Below are positions 9,358 to 48,544 of a stretch of 64,000 bases of DNA, one piece after another. The DNA is from Trypanosoma brucei (lineage: Eukaryota). The DNA is taken from positions 960,001-1,024,000 of the forward strand of contig CP000068.1 of assembly GCA_000002445.1 (NCBI GenBank), read 5' to 3'. The stretch's first letter is position 1. Each line of letters opens with the position of its first letter. The notes below the pieces were generated by a model that saw only the letters and a program-made list of their open reading frames with translations, was not told where the DNA came from and did no database searches. Made by a program: the position numbers and the translations under genes.

Positions 9358-10337
9358 TTGTACCTAAGACGCTAAAAAGGATTAGTTCAGAGCCTCTCTG
9401 ATTTTGCTGATTTCACCGCCAATGTAAAAAATTACGTATAAATGTATACGTGCGCAAGTAAGTAATATCCTAAGTGAGCGTGGATATGTCCGTTTACCAA
9501 AAACAAGCGTTCTTTACCCAACTCTCCACACAGCTCTGTGCGTGTGTCTCAATTGTTGCGGGCTGCTTCAACAGTTGAACAAACAATGCAGAAGAAAGAA
9601 GGAAAGCCAACAACGACAATATGTATATATATATATATATATACATGCGCACGCACACGAATACGTGCACGTGGTGAGGTAGACAAGGTTGTATAGAAGA
9701 ATATCAAGGCATGAAGAGAAAATGGGGCTTCCTTTTCCCCAACGTGTGCAAATGTTTGCAACGGAATACTGCATTGCCTTTCTCTTTCTCCCGTGCTTTA
9801 GCAGTGCACTACGTTATGTATGTAGGAATGATGAGGCGCCAGGGTAGTGGTTTCTGCACGCTGAAGTATTGCTACCTCAGACATACAAACATCAACCTCC
9901 TCTTTCCAGCTGCCATCACTAATATTAAATTCTTATGTTAAGACTTCTTTCCCTCGTTTCTACAAAGTTTCATTGCACTCCTTGTCGGCCCCCCCCTCCC
10001 CGGATACGCCCATCGCTCGACCCTTCACTTCACTTTTCCCCCCTCTCTTTTCTTTTTCTTTTTTTCCTTTTTGAAAGTAGCCCCTCTCCTCAAACAAATC
10101 TGGAGCCTTTCTTTATGACGTATAACCTGAACTGTTCACCCCATGCCATCATTCGCTTCCCATTTGCTATCGCCCCATCGCATATGCACATGTACGCGCA
10201 CACATACATACACGTATATATATACACATACACATATATATATATATATATTGTTGTTACCTCGTCGGATGAGGGTTTCAACACGACAGAGGGGGGAGAG
10301 AGGAGGAGGCACTAATACTTCAATATGTTCCTTACGC

Positions 10338-12899: not shown

Positions 12900-12943
<44 letters not shown>

Positions 12944-12986
12944 TTTTTTCTGCTTTCACTTCCATCAATGAACACGAAATGAGATA

Positions 12987-13053
<67 letters not shown>

Positions 13054-21400: not shown

Positions 21401-23401
21401 CCCGCCTGCCCTTTTGGGAGATATTCTGCTACCAATTGTCTTTCTCTCTTCCTTCGCAAGAAGATGTACAGTATAGTCCCCATCGGGTCCCCCAGCGGTT
21501 ACAGGACGAGAAATTACCGTTGTTGTCACCACCACCACGATAAGACCAGCGAGGCAAGTGGTAAAGACGCCAATAGTGTACAGAAGTTTGCGGTTTAGAC
21601 CTTCCTGGGGTTGCGGAGTCACCTCATGATGAATTCTGAACGGCGTGAAGGTGACCGGAGTATAGAGAAGAGACATTTCTACCGCTGCAGGGCAACCTCT
21701 GTCCACACAAGGGAGAGGTACAAAACCATTGGCAAAGCACACGAAAACACGCGTTGCCTCACCCATTGGGTAGAACACCGCCACCGTCGCTTCGTCCTCT
21801 TGCTGGAATACTTGTGCGTCCGTAGTCCCCGCCACGTTATCCGTACAGCGGACATTACTAGACAACCGCACAAATCCGCTGCGGGGTGGCCGCAAGGTGA
21901 GGTTAAGCGGGACACCAACGGGTATTACAGCACGCACCTCAGCTACGCTTGTGACCGCAACATCACTCGCACGGTAGAAGAGACGAGTGGAAGCCGTACC
22001 ATCAGCATCGAAACCACCAATATTAAAGAACACCATGGTTGCACCAAGAAGTCCAGTTGAGAGTGGGAAAGCAAAGGGTGTTGATATCTCAGTTGGAAGT
22101 GGGCTTCTACCGCCAATCAGCGGTTCCCACATATCTGGGCTGCTATCATTTCCGTTGTTGGGATTTGTGTGGTTGAAAAGTTTCTCAATGTCGAGGCAAT
22201 TGACGAAACTACTATTCATCATAACGCACAACCTACCGTTGAAGGCAAACATATGCCTTTTTTGAGGACTGGGAATGCTCAGTTCCATGTTACATGGCAC
22301 ACCAGGTATAAGAGACAAGGAAAGGGACGCACTAGTTTTGCTACTGTTGTCGTCATTTACAAGCGGATCACTTTCAACAAGCATAACAACCTGCACTGCG
22401 GGTGTAGGACACCACAAACCCACGGAAGATACTTCACCGGAATTGTCTGTCGCATTGACCCATTTGTGCCCCTCTGAGCACTCGCGAAACAGTTCCGATT
22501 CCCGCTGCTCAAGGGGCCCGTCATGATGCACCTCACCACCGACAACATACATAAGTGCGTTATCAAGTGTGACGAGCGGGTTTCGCACTGCCGTTGTGAG
22601 GTTGAAGATATCGGGATGGTACTGCCGTTTCTGTGTATCATACACATCCACAGTGCCAATAACTCCGCCCGTGTTCATATCAACTCCGCCCACGATGAAG
22701 AGTAAATGGCCATGTGAGGCACATGTAGCGTTGGCACGAAGTACTGTGCCCGCTGGTACACTGTCACCCACGCGCTCTTCCGCCTCTGCTCCCCTTGAGT
22801 CACTGACCCATGACTGTATGAGAAAGTGATCCACAACTTTGGTCATATCATTAGAGAGTGCCCATATGCTCGCGTACTGCTCCCTAACCAACGGGGACTG
22901 CGGAAACCCATCCCTCTCAGGGTAGTAATAACTGCAGGCACCAACAACATATACGCCCGAATTGTTTTGGTCATCAATATCATCTACCCGTACTGCACTC
23001 GTGGGGCCAGCCACCATAAGAGGTGTTGCATTCCCGTGTGCCCCACTACCAAGTCCTCGACCGCCCAGTTTGATGGGAAGTTCCATGTGCTGTGGCTCCG
23101 TTTGATCACTGGGGTCCACAATGTCAACGGCATTGACGCGCTGAGTACACGCAACATCTCTACAACCACCAATGATGACGAGGGAACCATTTAACCACAC
23201 AACGGCACTGTATGCTCGACCAATCGCCATTTCCGAGTCAAACGGTACCCATGAATCATCAGAATCCTTCAATGTACCATTGGTCGCGCGCCTAAGAGTT
23301 GAAGATTCTGCCTCACCCAACAGATAAACAACATTTGCGCCAAACAAAATTGTTACAAAAGCTACAAACACCAACATACAGAACAATGGCCGCACAACCA
23401 T
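18473..23401 (-). CDS. receptor-like protein kinase I: signal peptide, kelch-type beta-propeller-like ectodomain, single TM helix, ePK domain with ~450-aa low-complexity insert
   Basis: The track ORF reaches 23611, but its first codon is TTG and the next 69 codons read through a (TA)n/T9 tract. The first ATG is at 23401 (MVVRPLFCMLVFVAFVTILFG, a signal peptide). Repeated GG-containing propeller blades (IIGGCRD, FIVGGVDMNTGG, YVVGGEVHHDGP). TM LLYTIGVFTTCLAGLIVVVVTTTVI at about 21495-21570. Kinase motifs: GEGAFSSVY, ALKYL, HRDLKPENIL (~19165), VVTDFGLA (~18890), PYIAPECW. Confidence 0.85.
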   Translation of the reverse strand: MVVRPLFCMLVFVAFVTILFGANVVYLLGEAESSTLRRATNGTLKDSDDSWVPFDSEMAIGRAYSAVVWLNGSLVIIGGCRDVACTQRVNAVDIVDPSDQTEPQHMELPIKLGGRGLGSGAHGNATPLMVAGPTSAVRVDDIDDQNNSGVYVVGACSYYYPERDGFPQSPLVREQYASIWALSNDMTKVVDHFLIQSWVSDSRGAEAEERVGDSVPAGTVLRANATCASHGHLLFIVGGVDMNTGGVIGTVDVYDTQKRQYHPDIFNLTTAVRNPLVTLDNALMYVVGGEVHHDGPLEQRESELFRECSEGHKWVNATDNSGEVSSVGLWCPTPAVQVVMLVESDPLVNDDNSSKTSASLSLSLIPGVPCNMELSIPSPQKRHMFAFNGRLCVMMNSSFVNCLDIEKLFNHTNPNNGNDSSPDMWEPLIGGRSPLPTEISTPFAFPLSTGLLGATMVFFNIGGFDADGTASTRLFYRASDVAVTSVAEVRAVIPVGVPLNLTLRPPRSGFVRLSSNVRCTDNVAGTTDAQVFQQEDEATVAVFYPMGEATRVFVCFANGFVPLPCVDRGCPAAVEMSLLYTPVTFTPFRIHHEVTPQPQEGLNRKLLYTIGVFTTCLAGLIVVVVTTTVISRPVTAGGPDGDYTVHLLAKEERKTIGSRISPKRAGGRRQFVAEPDRSHRRKVAEAASGSAATPRNLRIAGDGANFRTEMDMVVKNTTRDSRYEVVRRIGEGAFSSVYLVKHRRSKQQFALKYLVCRDNKERLDALRECETINSLQGHPNIIRIVEMFMNYEFTGGNESPSTPQAFLAHAMTSPYVFQPKRGSCAFASKEINCSRLDAPLLDAGIPRAPAGPHGEKRNIPEVPASQKPLAEPQKVDITDPARSHTAKGTDEVSYMPPPSIGKRSKEDNLVSTAPPPSASAASVSTHCGSVRSSNHAQPPPDVHETSPPNAPTRLTTSSAVGAEGNSATVAVRTVGTPSQLTTPARQQAIVVHYPNFAQPTEPMPSPIVQQQQQGENNDQCEQQQQEGESLTTSKRTSYAPRGGIHYKDFDIAISASGVARCPQPALPPTPTLPNYVQPAAGSVQYTNFVAEDLCACAPTHCSVPAMSKPKSVADAVRAARLQRNSSTKVLTAEIDTSSILGGHIGREGRVSSLQTVATYQPSLMGQQVQRSERGRNNVCSHSLGAVTNTNHRVDGTQTPGRQPYSMGNGVVILPTNDNVPPASLCHSPLKPVAEVRERSSQPSPDQGLAHSRYLGLVMEYHPLGDLCGYAMRHSATHNPKVRSQLEREKLQAACAYEEKLNKRDEDTSDGVRLISSNSQSPLLPPEVTAPRLFCGEDSCGSSPCGRAAAPDRRVGAASTSNCGSGMNDIYKKLEDMFVMRENPFTEPQLLSIAYQLSSVLHHLHSQRPPIVHRDLKPENILIRGNPLDCSGSSRHEHGGSKSHHGCNREGGSKEGKDVTSPLAVAVEVFDETPKERGKSPRSTSRGGCPTRITADIIPIVVTDFGLAFVLEGRRKMGRGGGTRPYIAPECWVGQTSTASDLWSLGCVLYALATARVTVQTVRLMYEEAEREGFAAMVMNDILARNYSLEFASFVLSLLVTDPDKRLTAKMAMHCFEVVGENFEATHVQFNPNSPFFSNVQEL

Positions 23402-24181
23402 TGTATATATATATATATATTTTTTTTTTATAACTTCTTTTATCCAAGTGTTTTTATGACTGTCTGTATGAAAGTTCGGATACAATTCGCCAGAAATCCG
23501 GGGACTAGCGGGTAGCAAATGTGGCAGTGACGCCAGAGCACCACGAACTGCTCTTCCCCCTCCTCCACTGCTACCAATAATGTAGTTGTACTGTAAACAA
23601 TCACAACACAAATAAATAAGTAAATAAAGGGAAAGTTTGCACCATTAATGACAGGAAAAGTCAAGGAAGATATCAAGAAGGGAGTACGAGTAGTATGGGC
23701 GTTGCAAGTGATGGCAACAAAAAAATCAGAGGGAACAGAATGATTTCGTTCGCCACTTCCCTTTTCTACAACTGTGACCGTGCATATTAGTGGAAGGTAC
23801 ATCAGGGAGGGGGAAAGGATTGACTGATATTACTGAAGAATAAAAAGTTATATATATTTACGGAGAGGGGGGGGAGAGAACAGGAAAAACAATTAGCGGA
23901 TGGAAAAAGTGGGCTTACTGTACTCATATATCCGTTCTCCACTTTTTTTCATTTTTTAAAAAAATCAAAGCACCAAATCGGAAAACTCGGACGGACACTG
24001 CTATATACCGCAGTAAGGAACTAAAACAAAATGCGTACAGAAACAATAAATTATATATACGTCCGTAAGATAGTTTGAATCTACTTTGAAACTCTTGTTA
24101 CACAACTTTCTCCTTGTACGCTAACATCAACTGAGACACACCTATATCCACACACATACACACGCACAAGCAAGCAAACGA

Positions 24182-24769: not shown

Positions 24770-27700
24770 TCAAACGTTTTTGGAAACTGTCAGTGGCACC
24801 GGAGATTCCCTTTTCGATGAATTAAGAGAAGTTGCAACAAGTGAAGGAGACTCTCGTGCAATAAAAAATTCGCACTGCTCACCCTCCTCTGCGACAGTTT
24901 CGAAATACTGTTGGAGCACCTGCAATCGGCGACTCCTTCTACCATTTGGGGAGCCTAGTTTGTGTGCCCGAGCAACCGGAGGAACGTCCATCGTATTATG
25001 GTGTTCCTGTCGCATGCCCTGGCTTGAATCAGCGTGTGATCCATGGGAGAAACTAGTAATGGGAGGCATATTTTGTGACTCTACCGCTTTTGGTGGGGGA
25101 CTATTTAGTCCGAATCCTTCACCGGCCCCTCCAGACGGTGTAACAACTTCAACTGTGGCCCCACTGCGGTGCGTAGAGAAACTTGTAGATTTCAGCGTCC
25201 CGCAGACTACATCAGATCCTTGACCACTTACCGGTGCCCTCGATTCACCTCCGTATCCACTGACTTCCTCAGACGTCGCAGCCACCAACTGTTTATAGGA
25301 ATCGTCATGCATTATTCCACCTTCTGCTCCATTTCCTTCCTCATCACTGCATCCACTCGCAACATCATCGTCCCCCTTATACACCGTAACCATCGCAGCC
25401 TCTTCCGTCAGGCCATCCGTACCCTTACGACGCCTGCGAATAAATCTCAGGGCTTCCTCAGCACTTGGCCGGCGAGCTGGATCTGGCTCCAAAAGATAAA
25501 CAATGAAGGCCGCAAGTGCCATACTATACCCGTATACCTGTGTTAATTCTTCCAGCAACTTCTTTTTGAAGTCTGGTTTGTTGGACTCGCTAAACATAAC
25601 TTTTACATTGTCACTTTCTACGCGCTTTGCGCATACGGCGTAAAGAATGCACCCGGTGGCCCAAATATCCACCTTTGTGGAGTAGTGTCGCTGCCAACAC
25701 TCCGGTGCCACATACGGCAGCGAACCGACGCCCGTTTCGCAGAAGGTCTTGTCCATCACACGCGAAAGTCCAAAGTCTGTCACAACAATGCGCAGCGTCT
25801 CCTCTGAGGCGCCGGTGCCGATTCTTCCGCTGCTGTTCTTCGAACTCCAATCTACCCTGTCATATCTATCCCGGTTCCTCCCCCTTTTCACAGCAGGCGA
25901 CGAATCGAGAAGAATGTTTTCTGGCTTTAAGTCACGGTGAATGATTGGCGGTTTTTGTTGGTGCATGAACTGCAGAACCGTTAGTATCTGAAATGCAATG
26001 CTCACCACTGTCTTTTCAGGAATCTTTGGTTCTGACTTTTGTTGCCGCACCCACATACCCAAGTCCCCCCTCTCATGATAAGCCATTACAAGTGATAAGT
26101 ACCGCTCCCCCGCCTGGGGGCGGTGTGATGGTACGTGGGATTCTGATTCATCACCGCTGCCTACACGGTGAATGCGAGTGGGATCGTGTAGCAGCAGCTC
26201 ACCGCGACACTGACGTCGATACGCGCCTTTCCTCCCATCAACGCCGTCGGAGGTCGGTAGATGGGTATCAAACCGATAGGACATGAACATGTCAACGAGG
26301 CATATCACATTTGGGTGCCCTTGAAGGGTGTAAGCGACCTCACACTCTCGCATGGCCTCGTGACGATCCATGTCATCGGCACATTGAACGTACTTCAATG
26401 CGAATCGTTCTCCATCCATCACTCGTTCCACAAGGTACACTACGGAGAATCCACCCCTACCGAGGCGGCGCAGTACCCGGTATTTTCCATCCAGCAAACT
26501 TTGTTTCTGGTGCACCGGAAGAGCAGCACCTGGACCGAAACCTCGGCGATGTCTGCTCTTATCATCATTTTCGTCATCGTAGTCACCAGATTCGTCCTCC
26601 GAGAAACATCCTTCGACTACAGTCACATCAACTTCCTTACCATGTTTGTGCCTTATAGCATAACTTATCATGCTAGCACTCCACAGCACTAAACTCACAC
26701 CACATCCTACTGCCACACCAACAAGGTAAAGTGGTTCAACAGCTGGTGGCGGCACCGGCTGAGGACCTGGTGGATCCGGTACCCAATGAGTTACAGGGGA
26801 AAGAACAAATGGGTCGTTTGCATTTAGTGGTCGGTAGAAACCAGTAGTACACGGTCCTTGATGCGCATCCATCGCGCCCAGCGGTACGTGTGGCGCCCTT
26901 AACATTGATGAGGATGATTCATGCACCGCCCTCTCGTTACACCGCTGGACGGTGGCCGCTCCAGTGGAGAAGCAGACATAAACAAACAACTGCTCGTAAA
27001 ACACATTATCTGTATCATTACCGAAACTTCTTTGCGTTGGTCGGGGATGAAACACAAATTCATCTCGATGTGTGGTGCTGGTGTTTATGTAAGGAGTGGT
27101 GATATTATGTATACCGTTTATGAGGGAGCCAGTGAGAGTGATCGGACCCACGGCAACGGTGTTCACGACCGCGGAGACGTTCTTGCCCGGGTCAGTCATA
27201 TTTACTACGTAGGGCCAAGTATTGGCGAATGACAAATTCCCCAAGTTTAACAATACAGAGTTGCACGCAGGCGAATCGGAAAGCCGCAACAAACATGTTG
27301 ATGATGTTAGATTGCCGCTCACTTCCCCTGTAGCATTGATGCCCTGACAGGCAGTTGAAATCTGTTCCGACAAAAGGATTGCAAACGTGAAATTATACCA
27401 CAGTGGCTTATACCCGTTTACGTGCACTGTCCAGTTTCCGTCTTTATTTGGCAAGTCCGCCGGAGGGGGCGTTGGTTGATCGTGCATTGTTGCATTAGCT
27501 GTTGGTTGCTCCTCGTCATGAAATGGGTCGTCGAGAACACTCTGCCCCGTATGTGATATACTGTCCACCTCTGTCGTATCTCCTTTCGAAAATTTGGCCT
27601 CTACTATTTGGCCTCCTTCCCCACTGCGCGCTATTCCTAACATTTGCCGGTGTGTCGCGTCATCTGCCACTGAAATGTAGTTAAATCCCTGCACCGTCAC

Positions 27701-29044
27701 ATCAGCATGACCGTCTGCAACATGCACGTTACCGGTGAAGAGATCGCGTGAAATACCCGTCCCATCCGGTGGGGGTATTTGCCCGCCTATGAGATAGAGT
27801 GACATGCCGTCGGCATTTGGTACGGAAGCAATAACGGCGTTGGTACGCAGCGGTGCAAAACCAATCATCACATCTGTCGCGTCACTACCCGGCCCTGAGA
27901 GGTCCACCCATGACTCCAGTCGATCGAAAGAACGTCGATATGTTGCCGCAATCATTGCCAACGTTCGATTGTATATCATGAGCTGCGGCGACAACCAGTC
28001 TAACAACTCAGAGTCGAACTGACCAACATCTGCCGTGAAGTATGTGGGGTCCACAACATACACGTTGTCGTTGTATTCTGGCCAGCCTCTGTAGTCACGG
28101 CAGCCCCCTCCAATAAACACAAGCTCACTGTTGTCTACCACGCCCGGTGTAATAAGTGAGGTGCCCAACCCCCAACCAGCGTCGACAAATTGTCCAGTAA
28201 CTGTGTTGAACTGTGAAACGGACGTCATGGGGTTACCATCTATTAACGATACACCACCTACGATATAAATTGTACCATTGCCATTCCCCACACAACTAGC
28301 GTTGAAGCGAAGTGTTGCGGTGTCGGGAATCGAAATGTGTTGTATATCCATTGAGAGATCATCCACTGGAGGGAACTGCTGTTGGTACAACCTAATTACT
28401 TGGACAGATCGAAGAGTTGCATTGATTGTTTGCCCGCGACCAGGACGAACACCATAGGGAAGCATTGTACAGAAGCCAATAACGTACACTGTCGATCCCA
28501 GCCGAACTGCGTTTGATGTTCCGACAGCCGGAAAGTGCAACTTCGCCGGCACGCGCACGTCCCCTTTGGTTCTCCCGTGAAAAGTTTCACTACCACTACC
28601 GTCGTGTGCAAATGTTGCATTATCTTGAAACATCATGGGTGTCACAAATGTCTCGGTAGTTATATCCAAAGCACTGATCGTGGTAAGTGCGTAATACCGG
28701 ACGAAGTTCTCTGCCGATGTGAAGGGCCGAACGAGCCGGGTACCTCCAACGATAAGAACATAACGACCCATCGATACCGCTGACGGCAAAATACCCGTTA
28801 CGTTGAGGCTGGCTTTGCTTGGACTCCATCCCGTAAAGGTAACAGTTGTTTGGTCGGTGTCATCGTCAAGGAGAGATGATACCGCTTGAACGGCATTAGC
28901 AGATTCGTGACGCCGCGCAGGCGTGGCCCTCAGTGGCGCTGCTAAGGAATAACGGGATGTGAGGGAGAGGAGCAGCAGAGCCCATATCCTAAGAAAAAGG
29001 CAATATCTAACCAACACCATGCGTCCTCCTGGCGTTGTGGTCAT
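24770..29044 (-). CDS. receptor-like protein kinase II (paralogue of kinase I): signal peptide, beta-propeller-like ectodomain, TM helix, ePK domain
   Basis: The track start at 29089 is TTG. The first ATG is at 29044 (MTTTPGGRMVLVRYCLFLRIWALLLLSLTSRYSLAAP, a signal peptide). Propeller-like blades (YVLIVGGTRL, YIVGGVSLIDGN, YLIGGQIPPPDG, FIGGGCRDY). TM LYLVGVAVGCGVSLVLWSASMISYAI (~26655-26735). Kinase motifs: LGRGGFSVVYLV, ALKYVQC, IIHRDLKPENILLD (~25930), VVTDFGLSRV (~25790), PYVAPECW. Confidence 0.85.
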   Translation of the reverse strand: MTTTPGGRMVLVRYCLFLRIWALLLLSLTSRYSLAAPLRATPARRHESANAVQAVSSLLDDDTDQTTVTFTGWSPSKASLNVTGILPSAVSMGRYVLIVGGTRLVRPFTSAENFVRYYALTTISALDITTETFVTPMMFQDNATFAHDGSGSETFHGRTKGDVRVPAKLHFPAVGTSNAVRLGSTVYVIGFCTMLPYGVRPGRGQTINATLRSVQVIRLYQQQFPPVDDLSMDIQHISIPDTATLRFNASCVGNGNGTIYIVGGVSLIDGNPMTSVSQFNTVTGQFVDAGWGLGTSLITPGVVDNSELVFIGGGCRDYRGWPEYNDNVYVVDPTYFTADVGQFDSELLDWLSPQLMIYNRTLAMIAATYRRSFDRLESWVDLSGPGSDATDVMIGFAPLRTNAVIASVPNADGMSLYLIGGQIPPPDGTGISRDLFTGNVHVADGHADVTVQGFNYISVADDATHRQMLGIARSGEGGQIVEAKFSKGDTTEVDSISHTGQSVLDDPFHDEEQPTANATMHDQPTPPPADLPNKDGNWTVHVNGYKPLWYNFTFAILLSEQISTACQGINATGEVSGNLTSSTCLLRLSDSPACNSVLLNLGNLSFANTWPYVVNMTDPGKNVSAVVNTVAVGPITLTGSLINGIHNITTPYINTSTTHRDEFVFHPRPTQRSFGNDTDNVFYEQLFVYVCFSTGAATVQRCNERAVHESSSSMLRAPHVPLGAMDAHQGPCTTGFYRPLNANDPFVLSPVTHWVPDPPGPQPVPPPAVEPLYLVGVAVGCGVSLVLWSASMISYAIRHKHGKEVDVTVVEGCFSEDESGDYDDENDDKSRHRRGFGPGAALPVHQKQSLLDGKYRVLRRLGRGGFSVVYLVERVMDGERFALKYVQCADDMDRHEAMRECEVAYTLQGHPNVICLVDMFMSYRFDTHLPTSDGVDGRKGAYRRQCRGELLLHDPTRIHRVGSGDESESHVPSHRPQAGERYLSLVMAYHERGDLGMWVRQQKSEPKIPEKTVVSIAFQILTVLQFMHQQKPPIIHRDLKPENILLDSSPAVKRGRNRDRYDRVDWSSKNSSGRIGTGASEETLRIVVTDFGLSRVMDKTFCETGVGSLPYVAPECWQRHYSTKVDIWATGCILYAVCAKRVESDNVKVMFSESNKPDFKKKLLEELTQVYGYSMALAAFIVYLLEPDPARRPSAEEALRFIRRRRKGTDGLTEEAAMVTVYKGDDDVASGCSDEEGNGAEGGIMHDDSYKQLVAATSEEVSGYGGESRAPVSGQGSDVVCGTLKSTSFSTHRSGATVEVVTPSGGAGEGFGLNSPPPKAVESQNMPPITSFSHGSHADSSQGMRQEHHNTMDVPPVARAHKLGSPNGRRSRRLQVLQQYFETVAEEGEQCEFFIARESPSLVATSLNSSKRESPVPLTVSKNV

Positions 29045-30948
29045 GACCACTTCCTCCCCGTCTCCTTTCCTGCTCCAGGTAGCTGTCAAATGATTACAAA
29101 TGCAATCACAGACGCCAACGCGAAGTAATAGAGGAAAGCGGTGGTAATGACTATTATTAGTACCAATGGTAGAAGAAAATGGAACACTAAAGTAAAAAAA
29201 AAAAGAAAACTGTCCGTCAGACAGCCAAGGCGCGCGTATGTACCCTGCTACTACTAATGCTTCTGCTGACGCGCCACGCTGTTAACAGGCACCCTAAGGA
29301 GCCTTGACGTAAGAAGTGACGTAGCAAAAAAAAAAAAAAATGGAGTTAAAAGTGGAAGTGGCATATATGTGGGGTAAATTAATAACTTTAGTGTTGAAAA
29401 TATAACGGAGACAGCACAGTTCTTCTACAATAATGATACATATATATATATATATATATCTTTTTTAAAAATTTTGAACCTTTGCGTTATATTATGGCGT
29501 GTTACTCTTACCCGGCTCCTCTTTTAGAATGCATTCACGTGGAGAGGGAAAGGGTAAAAACATATAAGCAAAGAAGCACTTTTTAACGGAGGGAGTAAAT
29601 CAAGGTTAACACGGGAACAAACGAGTAGAAAAAAATGGGAACTTTAGTTAAAACGATCTCAGAACAAATCAGAACACCCACTAACTCTCAAGGGGGACGA
29701 ACAAGAGCGAAATGATGGGGAAACGGACCGCTACCCTCTTCTACATTTTTTTTAAAAAAAAAATTGTGGTGGAACTCACATGCGGGTCTGAGCAACGGGA
29801 AGTCATTAGTGCCGTTGTCGCTCCTTCTCTTACTTGCATTTTTTTCTTTACCACGTCCCTCCCCCTTTTTTTTTTCCTCCAAGTAATGTGACTGAAATGA
29901 ATAGAAGAGCGAAATAAGTGCTTGGAAACGTGTAAACTGCCACAAACAAACGCACAAAAAGGAAAAATACAGAAACCAGCATCCCCTACACTCAAGATGG
30001 TTCTGCCATCCTGCAGCACAACACAAAGTAAGAGTGGCAACGTTCTTCTTTACAAAAAAAAAAATGATTGTCCCTTATTTTAACTGATGGAGAGCCCACA
30101 CCAACCAAAAACAACACTACATAATATTATCATGCTGAAGCGCATATGGGAGACTTGCAGACGATAATGTGCGAGATAATTGCGCGAAGTCCGCTGAAAA
30201 GGTCGAAGAGGAAAGGAAGGGGAAATATGGAGGCCAGACGGCGAAGAAAAACAAAAGGGAAGGGTTGTGGGGACAAGCAAAAAAAAAAAAACAGAATAAA
30301 AACTCGCGAAGAACTACATGTAGAGTGAACAGTGAAGAGAAAAGACACTTCAACAGAAGGAGTACAAAACAACACTGGTACCAAATGTTTGCGAGGAAAC
30401 GTGGCTCACAAACCTGTTACCGAGCATATTTCTGGAACTCATTGGTTTATTTTCTGTTGAAGGTGCAATGAATTTAGAATGACATGAAAAAGAAAAAAAA
30501 AGTCTTCTCGCCCCCCCCCCCAACATTCCTTCTCTTTCCCCTCTTAGTATCTTTCCCCATTTTATTTCCTTCCCCTAGACTTTTTCATGCGGATAAATTA
30601 GCTCAGACACCACATACACACACACACACCGTACCATACCGCCTTCCCTTCTTCACATTATCCACACTGTTATAATCGCTATAGTTTCTTTCCTACTCGT
30701 CTCTCATATCTTTTCCTGACGGTCTGCTCCCTCCTTTCCTTAACTTCAACACAAACATTGTTACTATTATAATCACCATTATTTTTTTTCCTCGCTTTGC
30801 TTGCAGTGCACACTCAATTCCGCACATAAGTGTCTACATACACCCACCATCTCACGCAGGTACGGTTGGCCTCATTCCCAACGGAAGGAAACTCAACCCG
30901 ACAAAAACGTAAGAGAGAGAGAGAGGAAAAAAAAAAAGAAAGAAGACA

Positions 30949-32910
30949 TTACTTTTCAAAGAGCGTGGTGAGAGAATTTTCTGTATGAAGTTTCTCAATG
31001 GCACGTGCAAGCAACGGAGCAATAGGCAACACGCGCAGCCTCCTGGCGATGTGAGGATTTTTAAAGACCTCGTCGTGCTCTACGCTATCCGTAACCACAA
31101 TAAGATCGATAGGACTTTCTATGAGCCGCTCAACCGCGCGACCTGATATGATGAAGTGCGTTGCGATAAGTATGATACGACTGGCACCTTCCTCCCGCAA
31201 CTTGCAGGCAGTTTGACATATTTCAGTAGCTTCGTCAACAGAGGTATCTACAACAATGCACAGTTTCCCTTGTACATCTCCAACAAGGTCAATGCCTTCA
31301 GAGGTGATCGTGGTATCGCCATCATCTTGGATGGCGCAAATTCCCTGCTCCTGCTGCAGTAGCGCCTGCTCGAAGGCGCGTGTGCTCCCTACATTCGCAC
31401 CGCAATGGTTTATGTTGAGCACAGTATCCTGCAGCCCCCGATAAACCTGGCGCCTTACCGCTGTGCACAGTGGAACGAACTGCTCATCGGGGGAGAGTTT
31501 TTTGTACTGCATTAGCGCGTCTGCGAAATTCTTTGCACGATGAACACCGGCTCCATTGGGTGCCACGACGGTAATATTCCTGAAGTCGTGCCCTTCAGCG
31601 GTCAGCTGGTTCGCAATGTACTGAACGAACTCATACCGCGCTGATATCAGCTCAAGTGGAACGGAAAACATTCCTTCTACCTGATCGATGGGCATGTCAA
31701 CAGTTATTACGTGTTGGCAGCCCATACTCTCCAATATCTCCGCCACTGCAGCCATGGAAGAAACACTTTCAGTAAAGGAAATATAGGGAATAACAGCCGT
31801 AATACGCGCCGCAGAACTTGCTCTTGCCGCATGTATCATGAGAGCAAGTTCCATTAAAGTACCGGAGTGGGACAGACCCACACGATCGCACCTCACCAGT
31901 GACTGAAGCACAAACAAATCGTCGCCGCGAACGGAACGTGGGAGCACCACGTTCACTTCTCCATTTGGATATTGACCGCAACACGGTGGGTAACGGTTGC
32001 ATTGAAGCACTTCGCATATCATCTTCTCGCAAAAGAGGCTTGTACTTCCTGGAAGAATGCAGACGGCAAAATCACCGTGTCTCTCCTGGTGTGGGAGCCG
32101 AAGTGTGAAGAAGAAAGTGTCGCTGTGCGGGAGAATGCGGCGGACATTTACCCCCGCTCGGTGCTCATATCGTGTAAGGACCTCTACTGTCTCTTCATAT
32201 GTTAGGCGAAAGACGGTGCCGTAAAATGCAATGAGGTCGAGGGCAACACGTCGCAGGTCATTTGCCGGCTGCGATATTGTACTACAGCTGATAACCTTAT
32301 CAACCATCAGCAGATGCTTTTGTAGCTCCAGACTGTCACGGGCGCAGCGCTGCATGAACTTCTTCAGTATTTTACGCAAAGCGGCCAGATTCAGAGCCCT
32401 GTATTGCAATATGGCCTGAGTTTTCACGTAGAGCTTCGGGATGTGTTCCTCGGGGCGTGCCCGGATCTCCTCTTCACTCATATTCTTTAGTTCTTCCACA
32501 CCTGCCAGGAGATCCGCCTCGAGACACTGTTGGTATTGCTTAACCTTTGTGAACGACAGCTGGATATCTTTGAAGAATTTCACCTCCAGTTCGGAACGTC
32601 TTTTCAGAAGTTCATCCAAAGAGCGTTTAGGGCTAAGGGAACTCCCCCCTGTTTGTGGCAATTTCATAGCCTCCGGTTGGTTAGCGAAGACGTCTTCAGT
32701 TTCCGAAGCAGTGCTTGTGTCCGCCGCGGCCGCTCTCGCTTCAATCTCACGAACTCGTTCGATTTCTTTGCACAGTTGTTCCAACTCCTTCGCGATTGGC
32801 TTCAGTTCAAAGTAAGCGACATAATTGTTGAGCGTGAAATCTGTATTGTACTCCGAAAGAAGGCGGCGGTGGAAGGCTTGCCCTTCAGAGCGACCCTTTC
32901 CTGTGCGCAT
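30949..32910 (-). CDS. SPX domain fused to a PRPP-synthetase-like (ribose-phosphate pyrophosphokinase family) domain, predicted catalytically degenerate
   Basis: ATG verified at 32910. The N-terminal ~215 aa carries the SPX hallmarks (MRTGKGR...YVAYFELKPIAKEL..., ALNLAALRKILKKF). The C-terminal part aligns with PRPS along its length: NGEVNVVLPRSVRGDDLFVLQS, LMELALMIHAARASSAARITAVIPY, GCQHVITVDMPIDQVEGMF (the canonical DLHA His is Pro), VAPNGAGVHRAKNFA, and LVGDVQGKLCIVVDTSVDEATEI (the PRPP loop DDMADTCGT is degenerate). Confidence 0.8.
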   Translation of the reverse strand: MRTGKGRSEGQAFHRRLLSEYNTDFTLNNYVAYFELKPIAKELEQLCKEIERVREIEARAAAADTSTASETEDVFANQPEAMKLPQTGGSSLSPKRSLDELLKRRSELEVKFFKDIQLSFTKVKQYQQCLEADLLAGVEELKNMSEEEIRARPEEHIPKLYVKTQAILQYRALNLAALRKILKKFMQRCARDSLELQKHLLMVDKVISCSTISQPANDLRRVALDLIAFYGTVFRLTYEETVEVLTRYEHRAGVNVRRILPHSDTFFFTLRLPHQERHGDFAVCILPGSTSLFCEKMICEVLQCNRYPPCCGQYPNGEVNVVLPRSVRGDDLFVLQSLVRCDRVGLSHSGTLMELALMIHAARASSAARITAVIPYISFTESVSSMAAVAEILESMGCQHVITVDMPIDQVEGMFSVPLELISARYEFVQYIANQLTAEGHDFRNITVVAPNGAGVHRAKNFADALMQYKKLSPDEQFVPLCTAVRRQVYRGLQDTVLNINHCGANVGSTRAFEQALLQQEQGICAIQDDGDTTITSEGIDLVGDVQGKLCIVVDTSVDEATEICQTACKLREEGASRIILIATHFIISGRAVERLIESPIDLIVVTDSVEHDEVFKNPHIARRLRVLPIAPLLARAIEKLHTENSLTTLFEK

Positions 32911-39727: not shown

Positions 39728-39777
<50 letters not shown>
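39728..39777. repeat. (TA)25 microsatellite
   Basis: Read directly from the sequence. Confidence 0.95.
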
Positions 39778-41200: not shown

Positions 41201-44200
41201 TTATTCAGGAAGAAGGAATATGTGGCGTGAGCCATTGCCTTCCTCCTCTTCAACTCGCTCAGCTGCCTGCCTTAATAACAGTTGCGCATCGGTATTTCCC
41301 ACGCAAGCGTAACTTAAGTCACACATTGTGGCGTCTGACTGCTTTGCAGCGTCCTCCTCCTCCTCCTCGTCCTCATCGCCCCCCGTTTCATTCCCTTCTG
41401 TTTTGAATTTCTTCGGTACCGCCTGCATCCGCCGTGACGGGAGGTGGACATGCTGAAGAGCTTTCAAAAGGTCTGCGGCAATGTAATCCAAATCGTTGCT
41501 GTGAGTTGTGAATACATCAATGTACGCTGCTGAATGTCGGAAGAGACACGACGTGATGGAAGAGAGACACAATGACTTCAAGGATGGCGAAATGCCGTGG
41601 CAGTGACCGTGGGTGGCATCCTTCACGAGCTGAAACAGGAACGAAGCAAGTTGATTCAGCACAACGCTGCTACAGTAGCCACGTGATACACCGTCAAGGC
41701 AGCGGGTGAAGAGGAAGGAAAGTAAAGTCGGCAACAGATGCGCTCGCTGCCAAAGCACGTGCCGTGGCAACAACGTTGCCGAAAGTAGTCGAATAATTCG
41801 CAAAATGACAGACTCAGACAGGTATTGGGATCCATTACGGTACCCACTGGTACCGGTGAAAAGCAACGACGTAATGAAACTCATTTCGTGATCAATAAAG
41901 ACCTCATCTTCGTGTAGCGCCGCAAGGGGCAGCGTACACAACTGCAGCACACGGCAACACAAGCTGTGTGTACCCTCATCGTTTCGTTTGCTGCAATCGT
42001 GTGATGATACAACGGCGGCTTCAGCATTCACCAACAGACGCTTCGCGTCGTTGCGCCATATACTGAAACGCATGTGTGGAACGAAGCTGAGGCGATGCAG
42101 CGCTTCTGCTACAGCCGTCAACAGCTTCTGATGCCTGTCCTGTAGCTTTCGAAGATGTTGACACGCCCCCGTCGCTAATGGTATGGACGCGTGGAGGAGA
42201 GCATGCATATACTCCACCAGTAAAGACTGTGAGGGGCTTGTTGCGAAAGTATGCAGAATTTCTGGTATGATACAAAGTTGTTCAATCAACCAAAGCGTCG
42301 CTTTTTCCGTCTGATAAGCAGGATCACGCTGTAGAGCCACTATACGAAGTGTTACACATTCGCTTTCATGTTGTGATGCAATCTCTTGCGCTTCCTCCAG
42401 CAGACAATCCGTCGAATCGGAACAAAAGTTATCATAATTGCCGCACTCGTGCACATTGAAGCTCCCTAGTAGAGCAGCAAACCAGCGTGATGGGGAGTGG
42501 TTTGTTGTATCTTCAAAACCACCATCTTCAGACAGATCGCTTTGCCGACGCTCCTCATACGCAGCATAAAGAACCCACAAGGCTCGTGTCACCGCGCGGT
42601 TGCACGAACTCAGCATCGGCAACAGCACCGAGGCACTGCGTCGTCGCGACGCACTTTTGGAGGGTGCGAACAATTTGCGCAGCTTTGCGGCGGTGTCCGA
42701 AAGCTCACCTGACGCCACAGCAACGGCAGCCAAGCTGCGCCCGTTCCCAACGGGTTGCCGTTCATAGCTCCTCCCCCTTTTGTTGGCTTTTCCTCCTTTC
42801 CCACGATGGTTCACATTTTCTGACGCATCTTTCAATGCGGGAAGTCGAACACGTTCCAGTGTGACATAAAGCGAAGACATAGCGTGTAGCAGTGGCACGG
42901 ATGATTGGGGCTGGTGACGCTCCTCCACAAGTCCCTTCACCACCTCTTGAAGCAACTTACGCAGAAGATCCACCCAACGCAAGGAAACCTCAGTCAACTT
43001 GGTTCCCTCTACAACTATTGCTGATTCTTTTTTGTCCTCCGTGGCCTCCACGTGGTCAACACCACCTAGCGATGCTTCGAAAACCTTTCTTTCCCCCACG
43101 GTTTCCTCTTTAGCTCTGATGTCTTCTGCTGAACGGTGATGCTTCTTATCTGCGAGACGAGTCTTCTCCCCGTTGTCACCACTCTCACTATTCTCCACGC
43201 GACGCCGTTTTTCCGGCACTCTTACTGTCGAGGCAGTATCCCTGTGGCCCTCTTTGAGAACATAAGTTAAAGAAGTTCCGCTCATTGCGTCCAAAAATAT
43301 TGAAAGAACAGCGTAATTCCCGTCTTCGAGGCAAGCGTGCATTTTGTCAGCGACACTAATAATGAATTTTTGCGCGATAGGGGAGCTCATGGCTGTTTTG
43401 GTATCATAACGACACGCAGTCATGGCCATGGTGTAGAGCTGCCGCAATATGCCCAATGCATATCTTGATGACAGTGACAATCCGCTATCACTGTCCTTCG
43501 TGCTACATTGTTGTATCAGCAAGGCTGCAAACTTTGCTGAGAACATTCTACGCACAAGCTTCGTACAATCGTCGATTCCTTGCTTTGCCGCTGCCACCCT
43601 GATCCCCTCCGCATCGGTACAACTTTCCCCCTCTGCTGTATATCTGTTGCTAGCGTAAAGCATGGCATCGGCGACTGTAAACTGAACCCCTACGGTTTCC
43701 ATGAATGCCTCATTGAGTCCGTCGCGCTTGCGGTCACTCTTTCGACCACGATAATGCTCAAAACGATGATTTTCTTGATTTTCCTCGCTTTGTGTGTGTA
43801 AAAGAACCCAACGGAAAAGTGTTCGCACGCCCTCCTCACACACCAGAAGATTTAATACGAACTGAAGAATTTGTTGCCGTAGCAAGCACGACATACTACG
43901 TTGAACGTTTCTCTCTTCCTTATAAATAATCATCAACCAATGCACAAAATTTTGTAGAATCGGAAGCCACTGCGGAAGGTGACCAACACGACCCAAAACA
44001 TCATTTAACGCTGCAAACAACCTAATCAGGGGCGTATCCTCGGACCCCTTACCACCTGCGCTATCATTTTCATTCTTGGAGGTCATGTCGTGACGACATG
44101 CCAGAAGTTCCGAGTCATCAACATTCACCAACACCTCACAGAGGGCCTCCAACAGCAAACCTCCGCATGCCGCCATGCACCTTGAAAGCCATTGAGCACT

Positions 44201-47746: not shown

Positions 47747-48544
47747 CACAATCCCAACCACTACAACTTTTCACTAAAATGCCGAATAAAAAGGATGGAG
47801 AAGGGGGAAAATGTTTGCTACTTGGAGAAAAGACGAAGCGAGGTCACAACAACAAAAATAGAACGTCAAGCAGTTACCTACTTTTTTTTGGTTTCCATTC
47901 TATTGATACAGTAACCATTGCTAAGGGGGGGGGGAATCTGGTAAAAGGAATGCTCGGGTGCTAACCAACCCAGCGAGCTCTGCAACCGCCCTCCTTTTCC
48001 ATTTCTGTTCCCACTCATAAATTTCTGATGAAAATTATTGATTACTTAACTGTAGTGACTACTTTCCCCTTGCTCTCCTTTTTATTTTTGTCGTTGGCAA
48101 CTTCCTTCCTTCCTTCTTTTTCTTTTTTGCTTTTGGATGTTTTTCTTTCTCACCCGTCCCAATGGTTCTTGAAATTTGTCCTCATGACGTACACAACATT
48201 ATGCACGAAAGAGCCAGAAGATGCAATATTCACGACAAATAACACGCACCCAAGTGATTTGAACATATGTTGACTCACCTTTAAAAAAAAAAAGCACTCT
48301 CCTTATTAAAATTTATTCGAGTCTCAATGGTTCCTTCTTCGTTGTCACACCTTGAAATGGCATTTCTTCCGCTCTTCTCGACTGTTGAAAGAAAGAAATA
48401 GACAACAAAAGGTAATAATAATAGTCACATCACATCTTTATACACGCCGGCGTAAATCGCCACGCTGTTATTAAAAAACGAAAGCATTCAATCACCTCAT
48501 CTCTTTTATGAAGCAATGAGCAGTTTAACCTCCACCACCATATT

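What the first reader, a model, noticed from the sequence alone, without database searches (positions are those of the whole stretch)
30949..32910. SPX domain fused to a catalytically degenerate PRPP-synthetase-like domain
The N-terminal ~215 aa carries the tripartite SPX signature (in other eukaryotes an inositol-pyrophosphate/phosphate-sensing module). The remaining ~430 aa align along their length with ribose-phosphate pyrophosphokinase. However, the catalytic His of the DLHA motif is replaced (DMPIDQ) and the PRPP-binding loop DDMADTCGT is degenerate (DTSVDEATE). There is also an ~70-aa insertion like those of non-catalytic PRS-associated subunits. This predicts a phosphate/PP-InsP-responsive regulatory subunit of a PRPP synthetase complex, linking nucleotide synthesis to phosphate status.
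Basis: partly seen in the sequence, partly recalled or inferred. Interest (0 to 1): 0.65.

Follow-up and report, generated by a model that had tools for sequence, protein, structure and literature searches.

The report
SPX-fused dead PRPP synthetase paralogue (TbPRPS4)
This Trypanosoma brucei gene joins a phosphate-signal sensor (SPX domain) to a PRPP-synthetase copy whose active site is broken; the fusion was already published for T. cruzi as "PRPS4", and what is added here is sequence evidence that it is probably a regulatory subunit, not an enzyme.

Summary
Window 30949-32910 (-) is one 653-aa ORF of Trypanosoma brucei, annotated "ribose-phosphate pyrophosphokinase, putative" (Q57Z76 / C9ZPH5).

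Residues 284-653 are PRPP-synthetase-like but lack most substrate contacts. These losses hold in all 41 family members examined, while the closest unfused relatives keep every motif.

The fusion is not new. Mantilla et al. (bioRxiv 2020) named the T. cruzi orthologue TcPRPS4, pulled it down on 5-IP7 beads and listed Q57Z76. They call it an enzyme and do not analyse the active site.

My best reading is a non-catalytic, PP-InsP-sensing subunit of a heteromeric PRPP synthetase. That is inferred, not shown.

Novelty: already known as an object. Interest is moderate.

The parts
30949..32910 (-). Complete 653-aa ORF: T. brucei SPX-PRS-like protein, orthologue of TcPRPS4 (UniProt Q57Z76 / C9ZPH5)
   Evidence: the preprint lists Q57Z76 in the PRPS4 clade
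32155..32883 (-). SPX domain, aa 10-252. Model helices: 10-20, 33-66, 98-142, 146-151, 156-188, 194-208, 219-233, 238-252
32788..32823 (-). SPX helix alpha2 motif YVAYFELKPIAK. Y33 and K37 are equivalent to Y22 and K26 of the phosphate-binding cluster.
   Evidence: Invariant in 28/28 orthologues and 39/41 family members. Equivalence from the XPR1 and PHO1;H1 alignments. Cluster definition from PMC9911596.
32620..32712 (-). Low-confidence variable loop between SPX helices alpha2 and alpha3, aa 67-97
   Evidence: pLDDT below 50 at aa 77-79 and 85-92. The K41-F112 span ranges from 18 to 257 aa across the family.
32344..32400 (-). SPX helix alpha4 basic cluster RALNLAALRKILKKFMQRC. K180, K183 and K184 are equivalent to Vtc4 K129, K132 and K133. 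The K136 equivalent is Q187, with R188 adjacent.
   Evidence: Among 28 orthologues: K184 28/28; K180 25 K plus 2 R; K183 20 K plus 5 R; R188 26/28
32062..32154 (-). Conserved linker, aa 253-283 (..RRILPHSDTFFF..), joining the SPX and PRS-like domains
   Evidence: R258 invariant; I259, P261 and F267 at least 90% conserved. It is coding sequence, not an intergenic join.
31765..32061 (-). PRS-like N-terminal domain (Pfam Pribosyltran_N), aa 284-382. Contains the retained 'flag' residues Y314, N316, E318 and R328.
   Evidence: Among 41 family members: F35 equivalent aromatic in 36 (F 31, Y 3, W 1, H 1), E39 equivalent 41/41, R49 equivalent 40/41.
31741..31788 (-). Remnant of the regulatory flexible loop, PYISFTESVSSMAAVA (aa 375-390). 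It is 9 residues shorter than in E. coli or human PRS. R96 is replaced by E, Q97 by S, and D98/R99 are deleted.
   Evidence: pairwise alignments. Same 18-aa length in 28/28. Canonical relatives keep ARQDRK.
31666..31698 (-). DMPIDQVEGMF (aa 405-415): Pro407 replaces the catalytic, Mg- and phosphate-binding His131
   Evidence: Role of H131 from PMC9232217. The His is kept in Leishmaniinae, the symbiont-bearing trypanosomatids (Angomonas, Strigomonas) and Bodo, 15/28, and lost in all Trypanosoma.
31531..31566 (-). VAPNGAGVHRAK (aa 449-460): Asn452 replaces the Mg- and ribose-binding Asp170
31288..31512 (-). Expanded catalytic-flexible-loop region, aa 467-541: 76-aa span against about 21 in PRPS1. 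Hypervariable in length across the family, with one motif conserved in trypanosomatids (aa 509-527, nt 31330-31386).
   Evidence: The preprint reports an 85-aa insert in TcPRPS4.
31222..31254 (-). Degenerate ribose-5-phosphate loop VVDTSVDEATE (aa 553-563). Replacements: D221 to T, T225 to E, G226 to A, G227 to T, T228 to E.
   Evidence: Among 41 members: T225 to E/D in 41/41, G226 to A in 36/41. PAP41 shows a similar DDIIDDVDS.
30958..31293 (-). PRS-like C-terminal domain (Pfam Pribosyl_synth), aa 540-651
   Evidence: E 4.8e-21

Best explanation
The gene encodes TbPRPS4. Its N-terminal SPX domain is competent to bind inositol pyrophosphates. That domain is fused to a PRPP-synthetase-fold domain that has lost the ability to bind ribose-5-phosphate and the ATP phosphates, so on its own the protein is not a PRPP synthase.

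The most likely mechanism is co-assembly, through the conserved PRS oligomer interfaces, with one or more of the three canonical PRPP synthetase paralogues. In that complex it would act as a non-catalytic subunit. It may still contribute its retained trans-acting 'flag' residues (Y/F314, N316, E318) and R328 to a neighbour's ATP and allosteric sites. Occupancy of the SPX domain by PP-InsP would then tune PRPP output to cellular phosphate and energy status. This matters in organisms that depend wholly on PRPP-dependent purine salvage.

Status of each step:
- Shown here: the SPX fold and ligand residues; the family-wide loss of cis-acting catalytic residues; the retention of trans-acting residues.
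- Shown by others: the T. cruzi orthologue is retained on 5-IP7-analogue beads.
- Inferred: catalytic inactivity; heteromer formation; the direction and existence of PP-InsP regulation of PRPP synthesis.
For: SPX domain:
- Profile-to-PDB hits are exclusively SPX proteins: PHO1;H1 5.5e-10, XPR1 8e-6, OsSPX2 3e-5, VTC4 3.5e-4.
- Library search with the N-terminal profile gave 244 hits. The top ones tested (10/10) are SPX-PRS fusions, and 60/60 of the following ones scanned are Pfam SPX proteins with EXS, ANK-GDPD, CitMHS or RING partners.
- Phosphate-binding-cluster equivalents Y33, K37 and K184 are invariant in 28/28. Lysine-surface-cluster equivalents K180 and K183 are mostly K or R.

Degenerate active site, against the E. 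coli ligand contacts F35, D37, R99, H131, D170, D220, D221, T225, T228 (PMC9232217). T. brucei has Y, N, deleted, P, N, D, T, E, E.
- Across 41 family members T225 is E or D in 41/41, D221 is absent in 41/41, and the regulatory-loop deletion is present in every member.
- Columns that are invariant in real enzymes (H131, D170) drift freely here. The new states (E560, A561) are fixed, which indicates selection for a non-catalytic role.
- The closest unfused relatives, P0038-P0046, keep the canonical ARQDRK, DLH, SPD and DDMIDTxGT motifs, apart from the aberrant 915-aa P0039 and isolated single-residue changes.

Retained trans-acting residues: the E39 equivalent is 41/41 and the R49 equivalent 40/41. 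F35 and D37 act on the neighbouring chain's ATP site.

Precedents:
- Human PAP41 (2ji4) matches as well as true PRS (E 6e-36). It has a similarly acidified ribose-5-phosphate loop and an insertion at the same place.
- Trypanosomatids repeatedly use dead paralogues as activators, for example DHS (PMC3663545) and AdoMetDC prozyme (PMC5201418).
- TcPRPS4 was enriched on 5-IP7-analogue beads, and three canonical PRPS paralogues exist in T. cruzi and T. brucei.
- Mammalian PRPS1/2 and PRPSAP1/2 were also InsP7-bead interactors (Furkert 2020, as cited in PMC8644344).
Against: - There is no direct evidence of any interaction with the canonical paralogues. None is in the window, and I could not retrieve their sequences to confirm that they are catalytically intact.
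- No activity assay exists. The only publication calls the protein an enzyme.
- TcPRPS4 was not individually validated in that study. The evidence is bead pull-down plus mass spectrometry only, and enrichment could be indirect.
- One of the three lysine-surface-cluster lysines is lost (Q187). The T. brucei sequence alone is below the Pfam SPX threshold.
- The protein passes the TIGR01251 cutoff. Leishmania and Bodo orthologues keep the catalytic His and possibly the loop Lys, so residual or alternative chemistry cannot be excluded from sequence.
- A 2026 paper from the same laboratory states that Pho91 is the only SPX-controlled process shown in trypanosomatids. Nothing has yet been demonstrated for PRPS4.
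Confidence: 0.55

Rival explanations
1. It is a catalytically active PRPP synthase (EC 2.7.6.1), as currently annotated and as named in the TcPRPS4 preprint. In this reading the SPX domain regulates its own catalytic domain in response to PP-InsPs.
For: It passes the TIGR01251 ribP_PPkin cutoff (172.9 against 113). The whole PRS fold is retained with E about 1e-36 to solved PRS structures. D220, D224, E39 and R49 equivalents are kept. Leishmaniinae and Bodo orthologues retain His131 and have K or R at the position MAFFT aligns with the catalytic-loop Lys. The authors of the only paper treat it as an enzyme.
Against: Six of the nine ligand contacts seen in the E. coli structure are lost in T. 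brucei: R99 deleted, H131P, D170N, D221T, T225E, T228E. The phosphate-gripping DTGGT loop is DEA(V/I)x in essentially all members, and the Thr is replaced by an acidic residue in 41/41. The regulatory/ATP loop is 9 residues shorter in every member. It falls far below the cutoffs of all NCBIfam PRS equivalog models. Columns that are invariant in enzymes vary freely.
Confidence: 0.1
2. It is a stand-alone PP-InsP/phosphate sensor or scaffold that no longer works with PRPP synthetases. The dead PRS fold would serve only as an oligomerisation platform (a homo-hexamer or filament displaying six SPX domains), or as a ligand-binding module for another phosphorylated metabolite. The output would go to some other partner, possibly through the conserved insertion motif.
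For: The substituted pocket residues (E560, A561) are fixed rather than decaying, which is compatible with a new ligand or structural role. The insertion contains a motif conserved in trypanosomatids, ST..EKALRQQEEG. Some relatives embed the module in proteins of 1179-2608 aa. PRS proteins can form filaments (PMC9232217).
Against: Retention of residues that in PRS act in trans on a neighbouring subunit's ATP and allosteric sites (E39 41/41, R49 40/41, aromatic F35 equivalent in 36/41) is easier to explain if the neighbour is a working PRS. Every precedent for dead PRS paralogues (PAP39/41, yeast Prs1/Prs5; own knowledge) acts within PRS complexes.
Confidence: 0.25
3. The fusion is an artefact: two adjacent genes joined by an assembly or annotation error.
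For: None found. The only hint is that the T. brucei N-terminus alone scores below the Pfam SPX threshold.
Against: The reading frame is uninterrupted. The same architecture occurs in more than 40 sequences from independent genomes, metagenomes and complete transcriptome ORFs from MMETSP and EukProt. The junction is conserved coding sequence. The ORF has no internal polypyrimidine tract, while several lie upstream of the ATG. A protein with both parts was detected by mass spectrometry in T. cruzi.
Confidence: 0.01

Closest known systems
TcPRPS4 (TcCLB.507809.30) of Trypanosoma cruzi, Mantilla, Brown, Fiedler & Docampo, bioRxiv 10.1101/2020.01.09.900860
   Same: Direct orthologue (59% identity by BLASTP, 66% in the MAFFT alignment, full length; P0006). 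It has the same SPX plus PRS-like architecture and an insertion at the same site. The paper lists the T. brucei protein Q57Z76 in the same kinetoplastid-specific clade and reports enrichment on 5-IP7-analogue beads.
   Different: The paper treats it as an enzyme of nucleotide synthesis and does not examine the active site. It did not validate PRPS4 individually. The T. brucei protein has shorter variable regions: a 76-aa loop span against 139 aa in T. cruzi.
Mammalian PRPP synthetase-associated proteins PAP39/PAP41 (PRPSAP1/2; PDB 2c4k, 2ji4)
   Same: Both have the PRS fold without catalytic competence. The ribose-5-phosphate loop is acidified (PAP41 DDIIDDVDS against Tb DTSVDEATE). Both have an insertion in the catalytic flexible loop region. 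The match is as strong as to true PRS (E 6e-36). PAPs act as non-catalytic subunits of PRPS complexes (own knowledge). PRPSAP1/2 were InsP7-bead interactors.
   Different: PAPs have no SPX domain. PAP41 keeps the His (DLHQKE) and a full-length regulatory loop, both of which are lost here. PAP41 lacks the F35 equivalent, which is kept here. Orthology was not tested, and the dead state probably arose independently.
Yeast Prs1 / Prs5 (PRS subunits with non-homologous insertion regions, working only in heteromers)
   Same: PRS paralogues with long insertions that function only together with other Prs subunits (own knowledge, not tested here).
   Different: They have no SPX domain. The insertion sites and the catalytic-residue status were not compared here.
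Trypanosomatid 'prozymes' (AdoMetDC prozyme, DHS dead paralogue)
   Same: This is a lineage-specific strategy in which a catalytically dead paralogue heteromerises with, and controls, the live enzyme (PMC3663545; PMC5201418).
   Different: Those prozymes carry no sensor domain and are regulated at the level of expression. Here a metabolite-sensing SPX domain is built in. The heteromer is not demonstrated for PRPS4.
Classical SPX proteins (XPR1/PHO1/SYG1 SPX-EXS, Vtc4 SPX-TTM, Pho81/Gde1 SPX-ANK-GDPD, Pho87/90/91 SPX-CitMHS, NLA SPX-RING)
   Same: Same N-terminal helical fold and the same Tyr/Lys ligand-binding surface.
   Different: The partner domain is a PRPP-synthetase fold. None of the 60 generic SPX hits scanned had that fold. 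The third lysine of the lysine surface cluster is replaced.

Membership tests
SPX domain (Pfam PF03105) | Pfam SPX HMM score above the gathering threshold on this protein | tested here: not met
   14.8 bits, E 0.031, against a cutoff of 27.8; only the C-terminal half of the model is matched. 24/28 orthologues hit at E <= 0.01, best 2e-9.
SPX domain (Pfam PF03105) | Statistically significant sequence homology to established SPX domains | tested here: met
   Orthologue profile vs PDB: PHO1;H1 5.5e-10, XPR1 8.1e-6, OsSPX2 3e-5, VTC4 3.5e-4; all significant hits are SPX proteins. In the 1.84-billion-protein library, 60/60 scanned hits below the family itself are Pfam SPX proteins.
SPX domain (Pfam PF03105) | SPX helical fold (alpha-helical hairpin plus helix bundle) | tested here: met
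SPX domain (Pfam PF03105) | Phosphate-binding cluster (Vtc4 Y22, K26, K133) | tested here: met
   Y33, K37, K184: 28/28 in orthologues and 39/41 in the wider family
SPX domain (Pfam PF03105) | Lysine surface cluster (Vtc4 K129, K132, K136) | tested here: inconclusive
   K180 and K183 are present. The K136 equivalent is Q187 (E in most orthologues), with conserved R188 next to it.
SPX domain (Pfam PF03105) | Binds InsP6 / PP-InsPs | not testable with these tools
   Only indirect evidence: the T. cruzi orthologue was enriched on 5-PCP-IP5 beads by mass spectrometry
Class I PRPP synthase (EC 2.7.6.1; TIGR01251) | Two-domain PRS fold / family HMM above cutoff | tested here: met
   TIGR01251 172.9 against 113. 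Pribosyltran_N and Pribosyl_synth both E about 1e-20. PDB PRS E about 1e-36.
Class I PRPP synthase (EC 2.7.6.1; TIGR01251) | Ribose-5-phosphate loop DD..DTGGT (E. coli D220, D221, T225, T228 contact R5P) | tested here: not met
   The loop is D-T-S-V-D-E-A-T-E: D221T, T225E, G226A, G227T, T228E. T225 is E or D in 41/41 family members.
Class I PRPP synthase (EC 2.7.6.1; TIGR01251) | Regulatory flexible loop Y94-T109 with the R96/Q97/D98/R99 ATP-phosphate contacts | tested here: not met
   The loop is 9 residues shorter, with R96E, Q97S and D98/R99 deleted; the same length occurs in 28/28
Class I PRPP synthase (EC 2.7.6.1; TIGR01251) | His131 and Asp170 (Mg2+ sites) | tested here: not met
   P407 and N452. 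His is kept in 15/28 orthologues but in no Trypanosoma species.
Class I PRPP synthase (EC 2.7.6.1; TIGR01251) | Catalytic flexible loop Lys194 / Arg196 (own knowledge: essential in E. coli and B. subtilis PRS) | tested here: inconclusive
   The segment is TAVRRQV followed by the insertion, and the register is ambiguous. MAFFT puts R486 at K194 and Q488 at R196. With the invariant R487 placed at R196, K194 falls on V485. At most one of the two residues is kept.
Class I PRPP synthase (EC 2.7.6.1; TIGR01251) | Catalyses ATP + ribose-5-P -> PRPP + AMP | not testable with these tools
   No assay has been reported
Non-catalytic PRS-associated subunits (PAP39/41-like; 'prozyme'-like) | PRS fold with an inactivated substrate site and an insertion in the catalytic-loop region | tested here: met
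Non-catalytic PRS-associated subunits (PAP39/41-like; 'prozyme'-like) | Physical association with catalytic PRS paralogues and modulation of their activity | not testable with these tools
   Three canonical paralogues are reported in the genome. There are no interaction data.
Non-catalytic PRS-associated subunits (PAP39/41-like; 'prozyme'-like) | Common descent with metazoan PAPs | not tested
   E-values to PAP41, E. coli PRS and human PRPS1 are indistinguishable. No phylogeny was made.

The most novel reading that the evidence does not exclude
TbPRPS4 is an 'SPX-gated prozyme'. In this reading it is a dead PRPP-synthetase paralogue that completes hetero-hexamers with the live paralogues. It does so by lending its conserved trans-acting flag residues to their ATP sites. 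Its SPX domain, on binding 5-InsP7, switches the complex on or off.

This would make PRPP supply, and therefore all purine salvage in these purine auxotrophs, a direct output of inositol-pyrophosphate phosphate signalling. It would be the first SPX-controlled soluble metabolic enzyme complex, and only the second SPX-controlled process shown in trypanosomatids.
Probability: 0.35. Interest if true: 0.65.

Novelty: already known. Interest (0 to 1): 0.4.

Why it matters
Trypanosomatids cannot make purines de novo (own knowledge). Every purine nucleotide is therefore made by PRPP-dependent salvage, and control of PRPP synthesis is central to parasite growth.

The SPX-PRS fusion appears restricted to kinetoplastids and close relatives and is absent from the host. 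That is why its discoverers flagged it as a possible drug target.

If the PRS-like half is catalytically dead, as the sequence strongly suggests, three things follow. The database annotation "ribose-phosphate pyrophosphokinase" and the published label "enzyme" would be misleading. Assays and inhibitor screens should target the heteromeric complex or the SPX-ligand interface rather than a non-existent active site. The protein would also give a direct, testable link between inositol-pyrophosphate phosphate sensing and nucleotide metabolism. That link is hinted at in mammals, where PRPS and PRPSAP proteins bind InsP7 beads without an SPX domain.

Tried and rejected
- Single-sequence AlphaFold of the full protein gave pLDDT 42 and was unusable. 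It was replaced by an alignment-based model of aa 1-275.
- Pfam on the T. brucei protein alone gave only a sub-threshold SPX hit, so profile and fold tests were needed.
- Regex extraction of motifs from the extra family members failed and was replaced by an E-INS-i alignment.
- I looked for a second PRS paralogue in the window by tblastn and found none.
- The peer-reviewed version of the preprint (DOI 10.1111/mmi.14672) is not held.
- I found no later functional work under 'PRPS4', the accession numbers, 'SPX + PRPP synthetase + kinetoplastid' or 'prozyme + PRPP'. Nothing beyond the 2020 preprint turned up.
- Two recent VTC papers from the field do not mention the protein.
- Model coordinates are not exposed to scripts, so the basic patch could not be measured in 3D.
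- I could not retrieve the three canonical T. brucei PRS paralogues with the available search tools, so their catalytic integrity rests on the preprint's annotation only.
- I considered and rejected an assembly or annotation join (see the rival explanations).
- I considered synteny between the window and the metagenomic contig L001, since protein kinases lie near the gene in both. The gene order differs, so I treat this as coincidence.
Full report
**1. What is in the sequence**

Window 30949-32910 (minus strand) is a single uninterrupted 653-aa ORF with an ATG start. It lies in a run of large minus-strand ORFs typical of a trypanosomatid polycistron.

The protein is 100% identical to 'ribose-phosphate pyrophosphokinase, putative' of Trypanosoma brucei gambiense DAL972. 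It clusters at 90% identity or more with T. b. brucei TREU927 Q57Z76 and the T. equiperdum copy.

Full-length orthologues occur in all sampled Trypanosoma, Leishmania, Leptomonas, Novymonas, Porcisia, Angomonas, Strigomonas and Bodo saltans. They also occur in an MMETSP transcriptome and several metagenomic contigs.

**2. The PRS-like half**

- Pfam finds Pribosyltran_N (aa 284-382, E 9e-21) and Pribosyl_synth (aa 540-651, E 5e-21).
- TIGR01251 is passed (172.9 bits against a cutoff of 113). Every NCBIfam PRS equivalog model is missed by a wide margin.
- phmmer against PDB sequences gives E about 1e-36 to E. coli PRS, human PRPS1 and, equally, the non-catalytic human PAP41.

**3. The active site is broken, and it was broken in the ancestor of the family**

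The E. coli PRPS cryo-EM paper (PMC9232217) lists the following ligand contacts:
- F35 and D37, which act in trans on the neighbouring chain's ADP.
- R99 and H131, which bind the ATP phosphates and Mg.
- D170, which binds Mg and ribose.
- D220, D221, T225 and T228, which bind ribose-5-phosphate.

Through the HMMER alignments these map in T. brucei to Y314, N316, a deletion, P407, N452, D555, T556, E560 and E563.

The regulatory flexible loop (E. coli Y94-T109) is 9 residues shorter. R96 is replaced by E and Q97 by S.

The pattern across the 28-orthologue alignment, and then across 41 family members including representatives from the 1.84-billion-protein library, is as follows:
- The loop deletion is universal.
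- T225 is E or D in 41/41.
- D221 is absent in 41/41.
- G226 is A in 36/41.
- H131 and D170, which are invariant in real enzymes, drift freely. H131 is kept in 15/28 orthologues (Leishmaniinae, Angomonas, Strigomonas, Bodo) and replaced by P, A, S, Y or F in every Trypanosoma.

In contrast, the residues that act in trans on a neighbour are conserved. The E39 equivalent is 41/41, the R49 equivalent 40/41, and the F35 equivalent is aromatic in 36/41.

The closest unfused relatives returned by the search, P0038-P0046, keep ARQDRK, DLH, SPD, K-R-R and DDMIDTxGT; the exceptions are P0039, an aberrant 915-aa protein with several substitutions, and isolated single-residue changes (P0045 in ARQ and the loop Lys, P0041/44/46 in the R5P loop).

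The catalytic-loop Lys194/Arg196 pair cannot be placed unambiguously, and at most one of the two is kept.

The loop is expanded. The span is 76 aa against about 21 in PRPS1, and it ranges from 29 to 247 aa across the family. PAP41 carries its insertion at the same site. PAP41 also has an acidified ribose-5-phosphate loop (DDIIDDVDS).

**4. The SPX half**

The T. brucei sequence alone gives only E 0.031 to Pfam SPX, below threshold. Four independent tests settle the matter.
- (a) 24 of 28 orthologues hit Pfam SPX, best E 2e-9.
- (b) A profile of aa 1-275 from 16 orthologues hits only SPX proteins in the PDB: PHO1;H1 5.5e-10, XPR1 8e-6, OsSPX2 3e-5, OsSPX1, SYG1 and VTC4.
- (c) The same profile finds 244 proteins in the representative library. 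The ten top hits I scanned all carry PRS-like domains. The next 60 are all Pfam SPX proteins with the classical EXS, ANK-GDPD, CitMHS/Na-sulphate-symporter or RING partners, and their consensus is the textbook MKF..L..PEW..YIDY..LKK / LNxTGFRKILKKF.

For the ligand residues I used the definitions in PMC9911596. The phosphate-binding cluster is Vtc4 Y22, K26 and K133. The lysine surface cluster is K129, K132 and K136. The T. brucei equivalents are Y33, K37 and K184 (all invariant in 28/28), and K180, K183 and Q187. An almost invariant R188 lies next to the lost lysine. The spacing i, i+3, i+4, (i+7), i+8 puts these residues on one face of helix alpha4. I could not verify the 3D patch because coordinates are not exposed.

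**5. Not an artefact**

- The linker (aa 253-283) is conserved coding sequence.
- No polypyrimidine tract lies inside the ORF, while several lie upstream of the ATG.
- Complete transcriptome-derived ORFs carry both halves.
- The T. cruzi protein was seen by mass spectrometry.

**6. What was already known**

Mantilla, Brown, Fiedler and Docampo (bioRxiv 2020, 10.1101/2020.01.09.900860) found the T. cruzi orthologue among proteins retained on a non-hydrolysable 5-IP7 resin.

They noticed the N-terminal SPX domain and an 85-aa insert and named the protein TcPRPS4. They stated that it is unique to, and conserved across, Kinetoplastida, and they listed T. brucei Q57Z76 in that clade. They call it an enzyme with a 'putative activity'.

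The words catalytic, active site, inactive, pseudo- and regulatory subunit never occur in connection with it. It was not one of the four candidates validated individually.

I found no later functional study. A 2026 paper from the same laboratory says that Pho91 is the only SPX-controlled process demonstrated in trypanosomatids.

The peer-reviewed version of the preprint is not in the library, so I cannot exclude that it says more.

**7. How it most likely works**

Shown:
- An SPX domain with an intact phosphate-binding cluster.
- A PRS fold whose cis-acting substrate contacts are lost.
- Conservation of the trans-acting and oligomer-related residues.
- Retention of the orthologue on 5-IP7-analogue beads.

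Inferred:
- The protein has no PRPP synthase activity of its own (my estimate is about 0.85).
- It co-assembles with the three canonical PRPS paralogues reported in the genome. Precedents are the PAPs in mammals, Prs1/Prs5 in yeast (own knowledge), and the trypanosomatid 'prozymes' of AdoMetDC and DHS.
- PP-InsP binding to the SPX domain tunes PRPP output to phosphate status.

The mammalian observation that PRPS1/2 and PRPSAP1/2 are InsP7-bead interactors without any SPX domain suggests that the PP-InsP to PRPP link is older than this fusion.

Rivals:
- A divergent but active, SPX-regulated enzyme (about 0.1).
- A stand-alone sensor or scaffold no longer tied to PRS complexes (about 0.25).
- An artefact (about 0.01).

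**8. Verdict**

The object itself is already in the literature, so novelty is 'already known'. The increment here is the family-wide evidence that the PRS half is a pseudoenzyme that keeps its trans-acting residues. This contradicts the current annotation and gives a concrete, testable mechanism.

Interest is moderate (0.4).

Noticed in passing
window 31330-31386 (-), aa 509-527: Inside the otherwise hypervariable insertion of the PRS-like domain there is a short motif, STRAFEQALLQQEQGICAI (family consensus ST.g.EKALRQQEEG). It is conserved in all Trypanosomatidae but absent from bodonid orthologues. It may be a docking or regulatory element. The preprint describes the insert as having no homology to any PRPS.
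   Followed up: partly
P0069 and P0070 (representative-library hits): Two deep-branching members of the SPX-PRS family have lost all three phosphate-binding-cluster residues (Y to F/V, K to C/E, K to A/G). The SPX domain may therefore no longer bind ligand in those lineages.
   Followed up: partly
P0059 (2608 aa), P0060 (1284 aa), P0063 (1179 aa); Some family members are much longer. In P0060 and P0063 the SPX-like plus PRS-like module follows N-terminal extensions of about 370-410 aa; in P0059 the SPX-like domain is at the N-terminus (aa 7-296) and the rest of its 2608 aa was not examined. Their organisms of origin are unknown, and these could be gene-model fusions.
   Followed up: no
P0034 (EukProt EP00744, labelled Colponema vietnamica); An SPX-PRS protein attributed to an alveolate-related predator. 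It is probably contamination from its kinetoplastid prey (own knowledge of culture conditions, not tested). It should therefore not be read as evidence for the fusion outside Euglenozoa.
   Followed up: no
L001 (JGI metagenome contig Ga0609847_2047, 54 kb), gene at 10001-11743: The divergent family member P0036 lies in a dense, mostly same-strand array of intron-less eukaryotic genes: WD40, two protein kinases and a P450. This is kinetoplastid-like gene organisation. Its catalytic-loop insertion is almost absent (29-aa span), so the insertion expanded later, in trypanosomatids.
   Followed up: partly
P0039 (915 aa): An unfused PRS-like protein with a partly degenerate active site (YARQLDANTVNRPNI, DLHRPEVVGFF, VAPIGNTVKRA, DDMIDSASRV) inside a 915-aa protein. 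It may be another independent PRS pseudoenzyme.
   Followed up: no
window 18473-23611 (-) and 24770-29089 (-): Two very large protein kinase genes (1712 aa with a Kelch motif, and 1439 aa) lie directly downstream of the SPX-PRS gene in the same polycistron.
   Followed up: no
window 41201-47761, 48545-51064, 52509-57500 (all -): Three large ORFs (2186, 839 and 1663 aa) have no Pfam family at E <= 0.001.
   Followed up: no
window 12990-13051 and 39728-39777; AT-rich block about 12000-14000: Perfect (AT)31 and (AT)25 microsatellites. The first lies in a 2-kb stretch of only 32% GC, against about 47% for the window.
   Followed up: no
window 10338-11279 (-) and 58494-62693 (-): An eIF-5/eIF-2B-domain protein (313 aa) and a 1399-aa multi-WD40 beta-propeller protein flank the region. 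Both look like ordinary housekeeping genes.
   Followed up: no
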